A model generated the notes under the pieces. It worked only from the letters and a program-made list of their open reading frames with translations, was not told the origin of the DNA and ran no database searches. The translations under genes and the position numbers were made by a program. Below are positions 5,773 through 9,024 of a stretch of 38,083 bases of DNA, one piece after another (the stretch's first letter is position 1; every line of letters begins with the position of its first letter). Origin of the DNA: a virus. Lineage: Duplodnaviria > Heunggongvirae > Uroviricota > Caudoviricetes. The stretch is from IMG/VR virus record IMGVR_UViG_2913192161_000003, positions 1 to 38,083 of that record. One strand, 5' to 3'.

Positions 5773-6109
5773 AATCCTCTTGGCCTTATCGCGGCGAACG
5801 GAACGGTTAATACAAGACTTCTGCGCTAATGGGCGGTGGATAGCCGCCGTTCATAACTGAGCGTCCTCTGAGAAGCCGCTGAGGTATGAAAAAAGCCGCA
5901 TTGGGCTGCTTGTGTTGAAATCCTTTGTGGTGCGGTGCAGGGATGCTTATCTTCCCAGTTACTGTCTGGCAGCTGCATTTCACCGCACTACAAAACATTC
6001 CAGATTGTTGCCGGGGTATTTATCCATGCCCGGCGCATGGTTTCCTTGCTTTCCACAGACAAAGGAAATTGCTGAATTGGCTATTCCACAGGCAATTAAG
6101 GAATGATTA

Positions 6110-6337
6110 ATGAGCACTAGTACGCTGAAAATTCACTGCCCCGATTGCGGAAGTGAACTCATCAAGAGACCCGACGATTTCGACTTTGATAGTAATTTCG
6201 TGGATGTATCCTGTGCTGATTGCGGGAGGAACATAACGAAGGACGACGTTATCGAACAGGCCACTAAGGCTGTCAAGAAGCAGGTCGATGACATGCTGCG
6301 GAAGACCTTCAAAGGACACGGATGGAAGTTTAAGTAG
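6110..6337 (+). CDS. Small zinc-ribbon protein (CPDCG-N20-CADCG)
   Basis: 75 aa with two CxDCG motifs; AAGGAA RBS 8 nt upstream; opposite in orientation to the early-left operon. Confidence 0.55.
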   Translation: MSTSTLKIHCPDCGSELIKRPDDFDFDSNFVDVSCADCGRNITKDDVIEQATKAVKKQVDDMLRKTFKGHGWKFK

Positions 6338-6799
6338 CTTTATGGCTTCCTCCATTTTCTGAACTGCCTCTCTGGCGTCGAGCGTGAGCATCATCGGCGC
6401 CCTTATAACATCTCCCATATCTCACCTCTCTGTCGTTACCCGCTGATGCGGGAGAAATGCTTTGGTGCTGACTCCCCACAAGGAAGCAGGGAAGGCCGTC
6501 GTCGCCTTGGTGAGCCATTAACTCACCAACTAGCTGATAACCGTCTGCCAGCCCAAAACATTCCCTGTATTGGTCAGCGTCAACTCCCTGCCAGTGTTGC
6601 CCGTTCTCACGCCGTTCTCGCTCTCGCGCGGGGATATTCTCTCACCGACCGGATCGCACCCGGTGATACAGCACGTTTACGTGTAGGGGTCTTAACCGGT
6701 CATTGACGCTGTAAATCTGCATGTTGTTAAAAAGCAGGCGACTTGCTGTCCGCCGCTGGCTAACTTCGCTCAGCTGTCGATGTTTCGTTTCGATAGGCT

Positions 6800-6905
6800 A
6801 ATAATAGCTATGGCGATTATCGTAGTCAATCGCTTAAACGATATTAATGATAGGTAAGGCGATAAATGTGTGATTGATATGGCGATTTTTAATTAAAATT
6901 ATTTA
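6800..6905. promoter_or_regulatory. Operator-like repeat cluster (OL-like) and putative promoter upstream of the 6943 gene
   Basis: Three same-orientation GGCGAT half-sites (about 6811, 6857, 6882) and a near-palindrome ATCGCTTAAACGAT (about 6828-6841), matching the half-site of the OR palindromes at 8057-8097; TTGATA (6874-6879) as a possible -35. Confidence 0.45.
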
Positions 6906-6942
6906 CGTGGTAATCTGTTTTTTTCGGTGAAGGAGTGAATAA

Positions 6943-7317
6943 ATGGAACTTCAAGAGTGGGTTGATAGGTTGCGGTGGCTGAGCCATGAACAGATCGTTC
7001 AAGTTCATTTCGGGCTTCAGGAAGAGATTAAGAAATATTACAAACTGAGGGATGAAGCTAATAATCTTGCGCGCGCTGAGCATCTGTGTGAGCAAATGAT
7101 TGCTCTTTCAGAATTGGCATTTCCGGCGCTGAAGAGGGCTCATGATAAAAGAGTAGAAGAATATGAGTCGTTAACTGGCAACAAGTACCCGAGCGAATTC
7201 TATCCGCCATCACACTATGGATTTTCTCAGTTAGTGGTGATCTTGAAGAAAAGAAAGGATTACAAGCGGATTGAAGAACTTCGTGAAAAGATGATTAAAG
7301 AGGGGTGGAGGTGCTAA
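6943..7317 (+). CDS. Hypothetical helical protein (124 aa), AT-rich cargo gene convergent on cI
   Basis: Strong RBS GAAGGAG upstream of ATG; lower GC than flanks; sits where rexAB lie in lambda but on the opposite strand; followed by hairpin GCCCGG-TAA-CCGGGC (7318-7332). Confidence 0.6.
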   Translation: MELQEWVDRLRWLSHEQIVQVHFGLQEEIKKYYKLRDEANNLARAEHLCEQMIALSELAFPALKRAHDKRVEEYESLTGNKYPSEFYPPSHYGFSQLVVILKKRKDYKRIEELREKMIKEGWRC

Positions 7318-7331
7318 GCCCGGTAACCGGG

Positions 7332-8024
7332 CTATGCGAATCTTTTATAATCTATCGACTGTCGTAAAAGCACTCTTGCCATTACATAGAACTGGTCTTC
7401 ATCACCAGGCTCAACATACCACTTCTCGTAAATAGGGTTATCAGAGATTACAGCCAGGCGGTCACGCTGCATCTGAAGTCGCTTGACGTGTAATGTTTTA
7501 CCAAAAGCAAAGACATAAACGCCATCACTGTCGAATGCAGTGACGCCGATATCAACAAAGATTTGGTCTCCCGGAGAAATTGTTCCATCCATGCTGTCAC
7601 CGCTAACTGTGATGACCTTTATATTTTCAGCTGGGCGGTTACCGAACAGAGAGCGCGCTTGCTCAGATGTGTATTCAATAGCTCTAATGGTTTCAATGAA
7701 ATCGCTGGTAACTAAGGCACCCGGGCCCGCACTGGCTTTAACGTCGAGAACATCCACGCGATAGATCCCACTGTTTGGCTTTCTAACCTTGTATAGTGTA
7801 GGGGATTCATTTGCGCTACCGGCAAACATTTCACCTTCGCCAGTAGACAGCCATTCCGGACGCACACCGAGAACCGATGCAATTTCTACAGTTTTGCGTG
7901 AGCTGCTCGCACCATTCAATAGCTTATTAACGCTGGATTGCGCCATCCCTACAGCTTTTGCGAGCCTGCCCTGCGTATATCCTGCGGAAGACATCGCATG
8001 CGCTAAGCGCTCAGAGAATTCCAT
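7332..8024 (-). CDS. cI: CI-like prophage repressor (HTH + S24 LexA-like peptidase domain)
   Basis: N-terminal HTH (QGRLAKAVGMAQSSVNKLL), C-terminal S24 motifs (SGDSM serine, downstream lysine); divergent from the Cro-like gene; start taken at ATG 8024 (track begins on GTG 8030). Confidence 0.85.
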   Translation of the reverse strand: MEFSERLAHAMSSAGYTQGRLAKAVGMAQSSVNKLLNGASSSRKTVEIASVLGVRPEWLSTGEGEMFAGSANESPTLYKVRKPNSGIYRVDVLDVKASAGPGALVTSDFIETIRAIEYTSEQARSLFGNRPAENIKVITVSGDSMDGTISPGDQIFVDIGVTAFDSDGVYVFAFGKTLHVKRLQMQRDRLAVISDNPIYEKWYVEPGDEDQFYVMARVLLRQSIDYKRFA

Positions 8025-8056
8025 ACACACCCCTTAAAAACACTTTCTTTAATCCT

Positions 8057-8097
8057 ATCGCCTATGCGATTATTTAGCAAAAAATCGCATAGGCGAT
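8057..8097. promoter_or_regulatory. OR-like operators: two 14-bp palindromes ATCGC-N4-GCGAT
   Basis: ATCGCCTATGCGAT (8057-8070) and ATCGCATAGGCGAT (8084-8097), 27 bp centre to centre, in the cI/cro divergent intergenic region. Confidence 0.6.
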
Positions 8098-8125
8098 TGA
8101 CATTCGCCAGGGTGATAATCATAAT
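8097..8125 (+). promoter_or_regulatory. Putative PR promoter for the Cro-like gene
   Basis: -35 TTGACA (8097-8102), 17-bp spacer, -10 CATAAT (8120-8125); the -35 abuts the second operator. Confidence 0.55.
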
Positions 8126-8152
8126 CGCTTAAAATTGATAGTTGAGGTGATT

Positions 8153-8383
8153 ATGAAAAACCCCGCAGTAGAAAAGGCGATTGCCATTGCTGGCAGCCAG
8201 AAAGAGCTGGCGAAACGTTGTGGGAAGGCCCAATCAACGATCTGTGACTGGCTGAATGGCAAGAAGCGAATTTCGCCAGTCCATGTGCTCGACCTTGTTA
8301 ATGCGGTTGATGGGGAGATTAAGGCTTACGAGTTTCGTCCAGATCTCCCAGCAATTTTTCCGCATCCGGGCTCCATCGCCTGA
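8153..8383 (+). CDS. cro: Cro-like HTH regulator
   Basis: ORF 8135..8383; start taken at ATG 8153 (MKNPAVEKAI) after GAGGTG RBS; HTH segment (QKELAKRCGKAQSTICDWLNGKK). Confidence 0.7.
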   Translation: MKNPAVEKAIAIAGSQKELAKRCGKAQSTICDWLNGKKRISPVHVLDLVNAVDGEIKAYEFRPDLPAIFPHPGSIA

Positions 8384-8481
8384 GCCGCGCAACAGCTCAC
8401 CGCTCTTTAACAATCTGGAACCCTATTAAACCGGCTGAGTAATCAGCCAATTATTAACTATTCAACGATAGAGATAGCGAT

Positions 8482-9024
8482 ATGCAATCACTTACGTATC
8501 AACAGAGTACCGGAATACACAGCAGCGTGCTGATAAATCGCGCTCAACCGGAACCGGACAATAATCATGAGTTGATCCGCGCGGCGGTTCGCGGCTGGTC
8601 AGCTGCTATCGACAATCAGGACGTGGTGTCAGCGCTCATCATCAACGAATATCGGGAGCAGGGCGGGACTGCTATCAGCTTCCCGGAAGACATCAGCCGG
8701 GCGCGCCAGAAGCTCTTTCGCTTCCTGGATAACCGCTTCGACTCCGAGCAGTACCGAGAAAACGTGCGGAAACTGACTCCAGCAATCATGGCTGTTCTGC
8801 CGCTGGAATATCGGGAAAAGTTGATGCCGGAAGATAGCCTAATGGCTCGTCTGGTACGCATGGAGAAGGAAACCAGCGAAGCGAAAATTGCCGTCGCAAT
8901 GGATGCGCCACGGCATCAGAAGCTGAAAGAACTGAGCGAGGGGATTGTGGAGATGTACCGCGTTGACCCTGGCTTAACCGGTCCGCTGATGGAAATGGTT
9001 CAAATGATGTTGGGGGTTGTATGA
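8482..9024 (+). CDS. CII-like phage regulatory protein (CP76-like), tentative
   Basis: 180-aa ORF between cro and the replication genes; family by recall and position only. Confidence 0.45.
   Translation: MQSLTYQQSTGIHSSVLINRAQPEPDNNHELIRAAVRGWSAAIDNQDVVSALIINEYREQGGTAISFPEDISRARQKLFRFLDNRFDSEQYRENVRKLTPAIMAVLPLEYREKLMPEDSLMARLVRMEKETSEAKIAVAMDAPRHQKLKELSEGIVEMYRVDPGLTGPLMEMVQMMLGVV

What the first reader, a model, noticed from the sequence alone, without database searches (positions are those of the whole stretch)
8041..8160. Immunity switch built on 14-bp ATCGC-N4-GCGAT operators
Two 14-bp palindromes with identical half-sites (ATCGCCTATGCGAT at 8057-8070 and ATCGCATAGGCGAT at 8084-8097) lie 27 bp apart between the divergent CI-like and Cro-like genes. 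The second abuts a consensus -35 TTGACA with a CATAAT -10 at 17-bp spacing, reading into the cro-like gene. Matching half-sites recur at 6800-6900. This defines the likely operator specificity (immunity type) of the prophage.
Basis: seen in the sequence. Interest (0 to 1): 0.4.

Follow-up and report, generated by a model that had tools for sequence, protein, structure and literature searches.

The report
Operator sites of a prophage immunity switch
The two 14-bp palindromes are real and are almost certainly the binding sites of this prophage's CI and Cro regulators: an ordinary lambda-type lysis/lysogeny switch whose DNA-recognition specificity (ATCGC-N4-GCGAT) has apparently not been described before.

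Summary
ATCGCCTATGCGAT (8057-8070) and ATCGCATAGGCGAT (8084-8097) are the only exact ATCGC-N4-GCGAT matches in 38 kb, where 0.10 are expected. They lie between a divergent CI-like repressor (HTH + S24 peptidase) and a YdaS-family Cro.

- A third, imperfect site (8103-8116) fills the PR spacer.
- A weak PRM-like promoter has O3 in its spacer.
- Four imperfect sites (6804-6886) flank a leftward PL promoter.

Support from relatives:
- In 37 distinct OR variants, O2 is always perfect and O3 is perfect in 30.
- O1 is always imperfect.
- The central 4 bp vary freely while the half-sites and the 27-bp spacing hold.
- The half-site tracks the recognition helix: CI MAQSSV and Cro KAQSTI go with ATCGC. 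HK639, ST160 and HK022 relatives have other helices and other half-sites.

The cassette (6803-8481) replaces the immunity region of a phi80-like backbone. The same cassette occurs in Klebsiella phage Mulock and in many Enterobacterales prophages.

No paper in the library reports this operator. Binding is inferred, not shown. I rate it a new member of a known kind, of modest interest.

The parts
8057..8070 (.). O3 (OR3-like operator), ATCGCCTATGCGAT. A perfect half-site palindrome that lies in the spacer of the putative PRM.
   Evidence: Exact match. At this position, 30 of 37 distinct OR variants from relatives are perfect and 7 have 1 mismatch. The central 4 bp take 16 different values.
8084..8097 (.). 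O2 (OR2-like operator), ATCGCATAGGCGAT. It overlaps the PR -35 by 1 bp and lies 3 bp upstream of the putative PRM -35.
   Evidence: Exact match. It is perfect in 37 of 37 distinct OR variants. The centre is ATAG or its complement CTAT in 19 of 23 distinct pairs.
8103..8116 (.). O1 (OR1-like operator), TTCGCCAGGGTGAT, with 2 mismatches. It fills the PR spacer directly after the -35.
   Evidence: An imperfect site (1-3 mismatches) occupies the same position in all 37 distinct variants. The mismatches fall at different positions in different lineages, e.g. ATCTCTTTTGCGAT and ATCGCTAAAGTGAT.
8097..8125 (+). PR: -35 TTGACA (8097-8102), 17-bp spacer, -10 CATAAT (8120-8125).
   Evidence: 11 of 12 positions. 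TTGACA occurs in 32 of 37 and CATAAT in 36 of 37 distinct variants.
8052..8080 (-). Putative PRM (weak): -35 TTGCTA (8080..8075), 17-bp spacer, -10 TAGGAT (8057..8052).
   Evidence: My own reading of the sequence; it matches 8 of 12 positions, below the scan's threshold. The TTG of the -35 and the TA...T of the -10 are kept at these positions in all 37 distinct variants. Inferred, not shown.
7332..8024 (-). cI-like repressor, 230 aa. The recognition helix is MAQSSVNKL (residues 27-35). The LexA-type self-cleavage motifs are Ala99-Gly100, Ser144 (GDSM) and Lys181.
   Evidence: Pfam HTH_3 plus Peptidase_S24 and PHROG 4. The N-terminal domain aligns with the 434 repressor at E=1.7e-5.
8153..8383 (+). 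cro-like gene, 76 aa, YdaS family. The recognition helix is KAQSTICDW. The ribosome-binding site GAGGTG lies at 8144-8149.
   Evidence: Pfam PF15943 and HTH_3 and PHROG 35. The HTH is 48% identical to the CI HTH over 29 residues.
6801..6829 (-). PL: -35 TTGACT (6829..6824), 17-bp spacer, -10 TATTAT (6806..6801).
   Evidence: 10 of 12 positions. The -10 falls at the same aligned position as the annotated phi80 pL -10.
6804..6817 (.). OL1, ATAGCTATGGCGAT, with 1 mismatch. It lies in the PL spacer, and its first 3 bp are shared with the PL -10.
   Evidence: A site with 1 mismatch is present at this position in 53 of 54 distinct OL variants; the remaining variant has 2 mismatches.
6829..6842 (.). 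OL2, ATCGCTTAAACGAT, with 1 mismatch. It overlaps the PL -35 by 1 bp.
   Evidence: It is present with 1 mismatch in all 54 distinct OL variants, always 25 bp from OL1.
6850..6863 (.). OL3, ATAGGTAAGGCGAT, with 2 mismatches, 21 bp from OL2.
   Evidence: A site with 2 or fewer mismatches is found at this offset in 47 of 54 distinct OL variants.
6873..6886 (.). OL4, ATTGATATGGCGAT, with 2 mismatches and only the right half-site good. It overlaps the -35 of a promoter-like site for the 6943-7317 ORF.
   Evidence: At this offset most relatives keep a GCGAT or GTGAT right half-site, with or without the extra ORF. This is the weakest of the seven sites.
6803..8481 (.). The exchangeable immunity cassette: OL/PL, an extra ORF, cI, OR, cro and the cro-cII spacer. 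It sits inside a phi80-like backbone.
   Evidence: Similarity to phi80 ends at 6802 (97% over 6549-6802) and resumes at 8482. The cI-OR-cro and OL parts recur in Klebsiella phage Mulock at 72-76% nucleotide identity.

Best explanation
These are the operators of a lambda-type bistable immunity switch.

The prophage's CI repressor has a 434-like helix-turn-helix N-terminal domain and a LexA-like self-cleaving C-terminal domain. It binds as a dimer to 14-bp sites with the consensus ATCGC-N4-GCGAT. Each monomer reads one outer 5-bp half-site, and the central 4 bp are not read base-specifically.

At OR:
- Occupancy of O2 (which touches the PR -35) and of the weak O1 (in the PR spacer, 5-bp gap from O2, probably filled cooperatively) shuts off PR and hence cro and the early-right operon.
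- O2-bound CI lies just upstream of the -35 of a weak PRM and probably stimulates it.
- O3 lies in the PRM spacer and would shut PRM off, either through CI at high concentration or through Cro.

At OL, OL1 and OL2 bracket the PL -35 and spacer in mirror image and shut off the leftward operon. OL3 and OL4 add cooperativity and possibly OL-OR looping.

The small YdaS-family Cro carries nearly the same recognition helix and is expected to bind the same sites, with a different order of preference, in the lytic direction. SOS-activated RecA would trigger CI self-cleavage at Ala99-Gly100 and induce the prophage.

Shown here: the sites, their positions on the promoters, their conservation pattern, and their co-variation with the recognition helix. 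Inferred: actual binding, the order of filling, cooperativity, PRM activation and looping.
For: - Sites beyond chance.
- Gene identities: HTH_3 + Peptidase_S24; YdaS-type Cro; PHROGs; Ala-Gly, Ser and Lys motifs.
- Promoter overlap: for PR and PL. The PL -10 coincides with the annotated phi80 pL -10.
- Conservation at OR: across 37 distinct OR variants, O2 is perfect in 37 of 37 and O3 perfect in 30 of 37. O1 is always present but imperfect. The O2-O3 spacing is 27 bp in 36 of 37, and the PRM TTG / TA...T positions are kept in all. The central 4 bp of O3 take 16 values. Column entropy is near zero in the half-sites and high in the centres.
- Conservation at OL: across 54 distinct OL variants, OL1 and OL2 are always present 25 bp apart.
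- Distant relatives: N-terminal-domain homologues in Xenorhabdus, Arsenophonus, Tatumella and Scandinavium (52-66% identity over the first 80 residues, all with the MAQSSV helix) also have ATCGC-N4-GCGAT-type sites in their divergent regions, in different arrangements.
- Specificity: relatives with other helices have other half-sites. HK639 (ISQPAI) has ATAAC-N4-GTTAT, ST160 (VAQPTI) has ATACG-N4-CGTAT, and HK022 (VTPKAI) has TGAAC-N5-GTTCA. In each case Cro shares the CI helix motif.
- Reverse search: 51 of 52 loci with the two-site architecture encode an AQSS helix next to it, against 0 of 68 without the architecture.
- Structural homologue: the closest solved homologue of the DNA-binding domain is the 434 repressor, which also uses 14-bp operators (the operator length is from my own knowledge).
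Against: - There is no binding, footprint or reporter data for this repressor or any close relative. Nothing was found in the paper library.
- O3 is as good a match as O2, in fact the same 14-mer inverted. A lambda-like order of filling (O1 > O2 > O3) therefore cannot be assumed, and strong O3 binding would make PRM mostly self-repressed.
- There is a 3-bp gap between O2 and the putative PRM -35. From memory, lambda OR2 overlaps the PRM -35, so activation of PRM is the weakest inferred step.
- The putative PRM matches only 8 of 12 positions and was not picked up by the scan.
- The related loci are dominated by close relatives, so part of the conservation reflects shared ancestry.
Confidence: 0.88

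Rival explanations
1. The sites are bound only by the small YdaS-family Cro-like protein, or only by CI. The other regulator acts elsewhere, so this would not be a shared-operator switch of the lambda or 434 kind.
For: Cro belongs to a different Pfam family (YdaS, PF15943) from CI. Nothing computed here separates CI binding from Cro binding.
Against: - The two HTH motifs are 48% identical over 29 residues, and both carry AQS[ST][VI] at the start of the recognition helix.
- The same CI/Cro helix pairing is seen in HK639, ST160/D2 and HK022, each with its own operator type.
- No other repeated motif is evident in the 128-bp intergenic region.
Confidence: 0.07
2. The two palindromes matter as nucleic-acid structure rather than as protein-binding sites. 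Because they are reverse complements of each other, they could form a 15-bp hairpin or cruciform. Alternatively, O2 plus the T-run on the minus strand could act as a small intrinsic terminator for leftward read-through transcripts.
For: The minus-strand RNA of 8045-8110 folds at -26.8 kcal/mol, z = -5.1. The consensus scan flags 8098..8083 as terminator-like.
Against: - Only 1 of 23 distinct O3/O2 pairs in relatives keeps the central 4 bp complementary; the other 22 have 0-2 of 4. The long stem is therefore peculiar to this strain, while the half-sites are conserved.
- The region lies upstream of both the PR and the PRM start points, so neither promoter transcribes it.
- The same motif recurs as single imperfect copies at O1 and OL1-OL4, where no such hairpin is possible.
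- Any palindromic operator next to an A/T run triggers the terminator pattern.
Confidence: 0.03
3. The palindromes are a chance occurrence or a remnant without function, for example in a defective prophage.
For: None beyond the absence of experiments. The weakest sites (OL3, OL4, O1, each with 2 mismatches) are individually within chance expectation: 32 hits were found against 24 expected at 2 or fewer mismatches.
Against: - Exact matches: 2 found against 0.10 expected.
- Clustering was not reproduced in shuffles.
- Position-specific conservation holds across dozens of lineages in several genera.
- cI, cro and both promoters are intact.
Confidence: 0.02

Closest known systems
Klebsiella phage Mulock and Klebsiella prophages ST11-VIM1phi8.1, ST512-KPC3phi13.1 and ST13-OXA48phi12.5 (sequenced; immunity region not characterised)
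   Same: - CI is 86% identical, and cI-OR-cro is about 76-77% identical at the nucleotide level.
- The O3/O2/O1 layout is the same: ATCGCCAAGGCGAT, ATCGCATAGGCGAT (identical to this O2) and ATCTCTTTTGCGAT.
- PR is the same and the OL sites are equivalent.
- These phages are probably homoimmune with this prophage, or nearly so.
   Different: - The backbones differ: Mulock is described as a temperate myophage (PMC6856289), whereas this prophage is phi80-like.
- Mulock has no extra ORF between OL and cI, and its cII is lambda-type rather than YdaT-type.
- The genome announcement does not mention operators, a repressor or immunity.
Coliphage HK022 CI / OR-OL (Carlson & Little 1993, as cited in PMC8053113)
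   Same: - It is the closest experimentally studied repressor, with 53% identity over the full length.
- It has the same gene order and several operators at OR and OL.
- HK022 CI binds adjacent operators cooperatively and loops OL to OR (PMC8053113).
   Different: - The operator is TGAACCATAAGTTCA (15 bp, TGAAC-N5-GTTCA) and the recognition helix is VTPKAISKW.
- In HK022 a perfect site follows the PR -10 and the imperfect site is in the spacer, so the sites are placed differently.
- The two are therefore heteroimmune.
Coliphage HK639 immunity region
   Same: - CI is 51% identical.
- OR holds three 14-bp palindromes of the same geometry, ATAAC-N4-GTTAT.
- Cro is of the same YdaS type, and CI and Cro share a helix motif.
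   Different: - Positions 3-5 of the half-site differ (AAC versus CGC).
- The helix is ISQPAIQKM rather than MAQSSVNKL.
- The site spacings are 24 and 25 bp rather than 19 and 27 bp.
Phage 434 repressor/Cro and its 14-bp operators
   Same: - It is the closest solved structure for the DNA-binding domain, with residues 4-62 aligned at E=1.7e-5. The Gln that opens the recognition helix is aligned.
- From my own knowledge, 434 uses 14-bp operators with conserved outer bases and a variable centre that is not contacted.
- Also from my own knowledge, CI and Cro share the start of the recognition helix.
   Different: - The 434 half-site is ACAA (from my own knowledge), not ATCGC.
- Similarity is low outside the HTH.
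Phage phi80 immunity region
   Same: The surrounding backbone is phi80-like: nutL and the PL start are 97% identical, and the YdaT-like cII and the replication genes are 81-88% identical. The overall layout OL-cI-OR-cro is the same.
   Different: phi80 has 19-bp operators of unrelated sequence and a different cI and cro. There is no similarity between window positions 6803 and 8481. This prophage is in effect a phi80 backbone with a foreign immunity cassette.

Membership tests
Lambdoid CI/Cro immunity switch | Divergent genes for a two-domain repressor (HTH plus LexA-like S24 self-cleaving domain) and a small Cro-type HTH protein. | tested here: met
   Pfam HTH_3 plus Peptidase_S24 for 7332-8024(-), and YdaS plus HTH_3 for 8153-8383(+). 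The Ala99-Gly100, Ser144 and Lys181 motifs are present.
Lambdoid CI/Cro immunity switch | Several related palindromic operators in the intergenic region that overlap the rightward lytic promoter and the repressor-maintenance promoter. | tested here: met
   Three sites at 8057-8116 lie on PR and on a conserved weak PRM-like promoter. The PRM assignment is itself inferred.
Lambdoid CI/Cro immunity switch | A second operator cluster on a leftward early promoter (OL/PL) on the other side of cI. | tested here: met
   Four sites at 6804-6886 lie on the TTGACT-17-TATTAT promoter. They are conserved in 54 distinct variants, and the promoter is positionally equivalent to phi80 pL.
Lambdoid CI/Cro immunity switch | The region behaves as an exchangeable immunity cassette bounded by PL and the end of cro. 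| tested here: met
   The phi80 homology breaks at 6802 and resumes at 8482. The cassette is shared with Mulock in another backbone.
Lambdoid CI/Cro immunity switch | Repressor and Cro physically bind the operators; repression of PR and PL; immunity to superinfection; SOS induction. | not testable with these tools
   This needs EMSA or footprinting, reporter fusions and lysogen tests. No published data were found.
434-type HTH / 14-bp operator class | An N-terminal domain homologous to the 434 repressor, and a 14-bp operator with conserved outer half-sites and a variable centre. | tested here: met
   Alignment to 434 repressor chains at E=1.7e-5. The half-sites are invariant and the centre variable in relatives.
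434 immunity specificity | ACAA-N6-TTGT operators (from my own knowledge). | tested here: not met
   The sites are ATCGC-N4-GCGAT.
HK022 immunity specificity | TGAAC-N5-GTTCA operators and the matching recognition helix. | tested here: not met
   HK022 OR was read. The helix is VTPKAISKW against MAQSSVNKL here. CI is only 53% identical.
phi80 immunity specificity | phi80 cI and its annotated 19-bp operators. | tested here: not met
   There is no similarity to phi80 across 6803-8481. The phi80 operator sequences are unrelated.
Intrinsic terminator / structured RNA | A stem conserved through compensatory changes, and transcription across the element. | tested here: not met
   Only 1 of 23 distinct O3/O2 pairs keeps the centre complementary. 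The element lies upstream of both predicted start points.

The most novel reading that the evidence does not exclude
ATCGC-N4-GCGAT, read by the MAQSSV (CI) and KAQSTI (Cro) helices, is an undescribed immunity specificity that is widespread in Enterobacterales prophages (Klebsiella, Enterobacter, Citrobacter, Leclercia, Escherichia; variants in Xenorhabdus and Arsenophonus).

Together with HK639 (ATAAC) and ST160 (ATACG) it forms a natural series of 14-bp operators that differ only at half-site positions 3-5. From such a series a helix-to-base recognition code could be read.

The switch logic may also differ from lambda's. The site in the PR spacer is always the weakest. O3, in the PRM spacer, is as good as O2 and sits at a fixed 27-bp distance, roughly on the opposite face of the helix. 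This suggests strong direct self-repression of cI rather than lambda's late filling of OR3.
Probability: 0.3. Interest if true: 0.35.

Novelty: new member of a known kind. Interest (0 to 1): 0.22.

Why it matters
- **Immunity prediction.** The operator consensus predicts which prophages and phages are homoimmune. This bears on superinfection exclusion and on choosing temperate or engineered phages against Klebsiella and Enterobacter strains, many of which carry this cassette.
- **Synthetic biology.** It adds one more likely orthogonal repressor/operator pair to the CI toolbox. Orthogonality would need testing.
- **Recognition rules.** Alongside HK639- and ST160-type relatives it gives a small natural series for studying how a 434-like helix reads half-site positions 3-5.
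- **No new principle.** The architecture is the textbook lambdoid switch.

Tried and rejected
- **Fourth OR site after the PR -10.** I looked at ATCGCTTAAAATTGAT, 8123-8138, by analogy with HK022 OR1. Only the left half-site matches, the spacing would be N6, and the Klebsiella lineage has ATCATCAAAAACCAAT there. Rejected as an operator. The 11-mer AATCGCTTAAA that it shares with OL2 remains unexplained.
- **Alternative registers.** I tested an O1 placed 25 bp from O2, and an OL1 placed 19 bp from OL2. By hand these match 4-5 of 10 half-site positions. Rejected.
- **Distal operator like HK022's.** The 2-mismatch hits at 7993-8006 and 8468-8481 are within chance expectation. A perfect site about 794 bp from the cI start in 13 relatives lies inside the ydaT-like gene and encodes I-A-x-A-M. 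It is absent from the window and was not counted.
- **Hairpin or terminator reading.** Rejected because the long stem is not conserved.
- **Literature.** Exact-string searches for the operator sequences found 0 papers. The Mulock announcement has no operator analysis. The HK639 and HK022 searches gave only context.
- **E. coli complete genomes.** None carries this exact cassette. The best matches are 77% identical.

Full report
**1. Observation**

- ATCGCCTATGCGAT lies at 8057-8070 and ATCGCATAGGCGAT at 8084-8097. The starts are 27 bp apart.
- These are the only exact matches to ATCGCNNNNGCGAT in the 38-kb window. The expected number is 0.10, and no shuffle gave two.
- The two 14-mers are exact reverse complements of each other.
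- TTGACA (8097-8102), a 17-bp spacer and CATAAT (8120-8125) form the strongest promoter-like site in the region, matching 11 of 12 positions. It reads into an ORF that starts at ATG 8153 behind a GAGGTG ribosome-binding site.
- With up to 2 mismatches the pattern gives 32 hits against 24 expected. Seven of them fall in two tight clusters: 8057-8116 (three sites) and 6804-6886 (four sites).
- A cluster of four within 70 bp never arose in 300 block shuffles, and a cluster of three arose in 3.

**2. Surrounding genes**

- 7332-8024 (-) encodes a 230-aa protein with HTH_3 and Peptidase_S24 domains (PHROG 4 'transcriptional repressor'). It carries the LexA-type motifs Ala99-Gly100, Ser144 in GDSM, and Lys181.
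- 8153-8383 (+) encodes a 76-aa YdaS-family HTH protein, the Cro type found in many lambdoid phages.
- 8482-9024 (+) encodes a YdaT-family 'CII-like' protein.
- The N-terminal domain of CI aligns with the solved 434 repressor at E=1.7e-5, and the Gln that opens the 434 recognition helix is aligned.

**3. Anatomy of the switch**

*At OR*
- O2 (8084-8097) shares one base with the PR -35.
- A third site, O1 (TTCGCCAGGGTGAT, 8103-8116, 2 mismatches), fills the PR spacer.
- On the minus strand I read a weak promoter: TTGCTA (8080..8075), 17 bp, TAGGAT (8057..8052). O3 lies in its spacer and O2 lies 3 bp upstream of its -35. It matches 8 of 12 positions, which is below the scan's threshold. A weak promoter is what one expects for a repressor-maintenance promoter.
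- Centre-to-centre distances are 19 bp for O1-O2 and 27 bp for O2-O3.

*At OL*
- The scan finds a leftward promoter: TTGACT (6829..6824), 17 bp, TATTAT (6806..6801).
- OL2 (6829-6842) touches its -35 in mirror image of O2 at PR.
- OL1 (6804-6817) lies in the spacer and shares 3 bp with the -10. That overlap explains OL1's constant C-to-A mismatch.
- OL3 (6850-6863) and OL4 (6873-6886) follow at 21 and 23 bp.

**4. Relatives**

The CI protein retrieved 9 genome loci at 64-100% identity (Escherichia sp. E1V33 at 100%, plus Enterobacter, Citrobacter, Leclercia, Trabulsiella, Apirhabdus and Tatumella), a more distant Scandinavium locus (38%) that I also analysed, and 80 viral contigs at 81-86%.

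*OR, 37 distinct variants*
- O2 is a perfect match in all 37. O3 is perfect in 30 and has one mismatch in 7.
- O1 is always present at the same position and always imperfect (1-3 mismatches). The mismatches fall at different positions in different lineages, e.g. ATCTCTTTTGCGAT, ATCGCTAAAGTGAT and TTCGATTAAGCGAT.
- The O2-O3 distance is 27 bp in 36 of 37.
- PR is TTGACA in 32 and CATAAT in 36.
- The TTG of the PRM -35 and the TA...T of the PRM -10 are kept in all 37.
- The centre of O3 takes 16 different tetranucleotides among 23 distinct O3/O2 pairs. Column entropy is near zero in the half-sites.
- Fixed outer half-sites with a free centre is the pattern expected for a dimeric HTH protein that reads two half-sites.

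*OL, 54 distinct variants*
- OL1 and OL2 are always present 25 bp apart.
- OL3 is found (2 or fewer mismatches) in 47 of the 54 variants.
- A right half-site is usually present at the OL4 position, whether or not the extra ORF is there.

**5. Specificity**

- More distant homologues of the DNA-binding domain in Tatumella, Scandinavium, Xenorhabdus and Arsenophonus are 52-66% identical over the first 80 residues. All keep the helix MAQSSV.
- All of them have ATCGC-N4-GCGAT-type sites in their divergent regions, in partly different arrangements.
- Relatives with a different helix have different operators, which I read directly from their OR regions:

| Phage | CI helix | Cro helix | Operator |
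|---|---|---|---|
| This prophage | MAQSSVNKL | KAQSTICDW | ATCGC-N4-GCGAT |
| HK639 | ISQPAIQKM | VSQPAVHKW | ATAAC-N4-GTTAT |
| ST160 / D2 | VAQPTIWRL | V(K/A)QPTVWRW | ATACG-N4-CGTAT (ST160) |
| HK022 | VTPKAISKW | LTPKAIYKW | TGAAC-N5-GTTCA |

- In this window the CI and Cro HTH motifs are 48% identical over 29 residues. I take this as evidence that both proteins read the same sites, as in 434 and lambda. That comparison rests on my own knowledge.
- A reverse search for ATCGCN4GCGATTGACA in viral contigs returned 120 loci. Of the 52 that also have a second site 25 or 27 bp upstream, 51 encode an AQSS helix in the adjacent leftward ORF. None of the other 68 does.

**6. Module boundaries**

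- The window is a phi80-like prophage. Similarity to phi80 runs up to 6802, covering nutL and the PL start at 97% identity. It resumes exactly at 8482, the start of the YdaT-like cII.
- The phi80 pL -10 maps to the same aligned position as the PL -10 found here.
- Between these points there is no similarity to phi80. Instead, cI-OR-cro and OL recur at 72-77% nucleotide identity in Klebsiella phage Mulock and three Klebsiella prophages (CI 86% identical).
- So 6803-8481 is a classical exchangeable immunity cassette.
- No complete E. coli genome carries this exact cassette. The best matches are 77% identical.

**7. Mechanism**

*Best explanation (confidence 0.88)*
- CI dimers bind the 14-bp sites.
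- O2 together with the weak O1 (probably filled cooperatively across the 5-bp gap) shuts PR. OL2 and OL1 shut PL.
- O2-bound CI may stimulate the weak PRM.
- O3 in the PRM spacer gives negative control by CI or by Cro.
- RecA-stimulated self-cleavage induces the prophage.

*What is shown and what is inferred*
- Shown: the sites, their placement on promoters, their conservation, and the helix/half-site correlation.
- Inferred: binding, order of occupancy, cooperativity, PRM activation, and OL-OR looping. HK022 CI, the closest studied relative, does loop (PMC8053113).

*Caveats*
- O3 is as good a site as O2.
- O2 does not overlap the PRM -35.
- The details of autoregulation may therefore differ from lambda.

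**8. Rivals**

- **Hairpin, cruciform or terminator.** This reading is suggested by the -26.8 kcal/mol fold and by a terminator-pattern hit. It is not supported. The long stem exists only because this strain's O2 and O3 centres happen to be complementary, and only 1 of 23 distinct pairs in relatives keeps that complementarity. The region also lies upstream of both predicted transcription starts.
- **Binding by only one of the two regulators.** This cannot be excluded, but the shared helix motif makes it unlikely.
- **Chance.** Excluded.

**9. Comparison and novelty**

- In architecture this is a standard lambdoid switch.
- In its DNA-binding domain it is 434-like.
- In overall sequence it is closest to the uncharacterised Mulock group, and then to HK022 (53%) and HK639 (51%).
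- It fails the specificity test for the 434, HK022, HK639 and phi80 immunities.
- Neither operator sequence appears in any paper in the library, and the Mulock announcement does not discuss operators.
- I therefore class it as a new member of a known kind: a sound and useful annotation, but not surprising.

Noticed in passing
window 6943-7317 (+), with 6874-6902 and 7317-7333: A 124-aa ORF of unknown function (PHROG 22434, no Pfam hit) sits between OL and cI, convergent with cI. It is present in 19 of the roughly 90 related loci. Its promoter-like site (TTGATA-17-AATTAT) overlaps OL4, so CI may regulate it. The hairpin AGCCCGGTAACCGGGCT spans both stop codons. It sits in the position of a lysogenic-conversion or exclusion gene.
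   Followed up: partly
window 6107-6418: The phi80 N gene has no match in the window (tblastn), although the phi80 nutL region is 97% conserved. At N's position a 103-aa minus-strand ORF without any family hit overlaps a 75-aa plus-strand ORF with two CxxC pairs (zinc-ribbon-like). It is unclear which of the two is the real gene, and what supplies antitermination.
   Followed up: partly
window 8401-8413 and 8433-8448: The cro-cII spacer contains a boxA-like CGCTCTTTAACAA and a hairpin GGCTGA-GTAA-TCAGCC, which looks like a nutR site. The hairpin differs from the phi80 nutL core hairpin (CACGT..ACGTG). Seen by eye only.
   Followed up: no
L006 1707-1720 and 12 other related loci (about 794 bp from the cI start): Thirteen relatives carry a perfect ATCGC-N4-GCGAT with a variable centre inside the ydaT-like cII gene, encoding I-A-x-A-M. 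It could be a distal operator, as HK022 has one about 300 bp downstream of OR, or simply a coding constraint. The window has no equivalent.
   Followed up: partly
window 6828-6838 and 8122-8132: The 11-mer AATCGCTTAAA occurs both in OL2 and immediately after the PR -10, around the PR start point. At PR it provides a lone left half-site. It is partly conserved in the Enterobacter lineage (ATCGCTTTAAACTGAT) but not in the Klebsiella lineage.
   Followed up: partly
L005 (Escherichia sp. E1V33, NZ_RHJI01000010.1) versus window 8073 and 8106: The genome with a 100% identical CI differs from the window at two intergenic bases. One of them adds a third mismatch to O1 (TTCACC versus TTCGCC). The window therefore comes from a different strain, and O1 tolerates further weakening.
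   Followed up: no
L016-L021 (Xenorhabdus); L015, L022, L023, L028 (Arsenophonus): Homologues matching only the N-terminal ~70 residues of CI keep the MAQSSV helix and ATCGC-type sites, but in a different layout: one site overlaps the -10, as in TATAATAGCTATAGCGAT. The DNA-binding domain and its operator appear to travel together independently of the C-terminal domain.
   Followed up: partly
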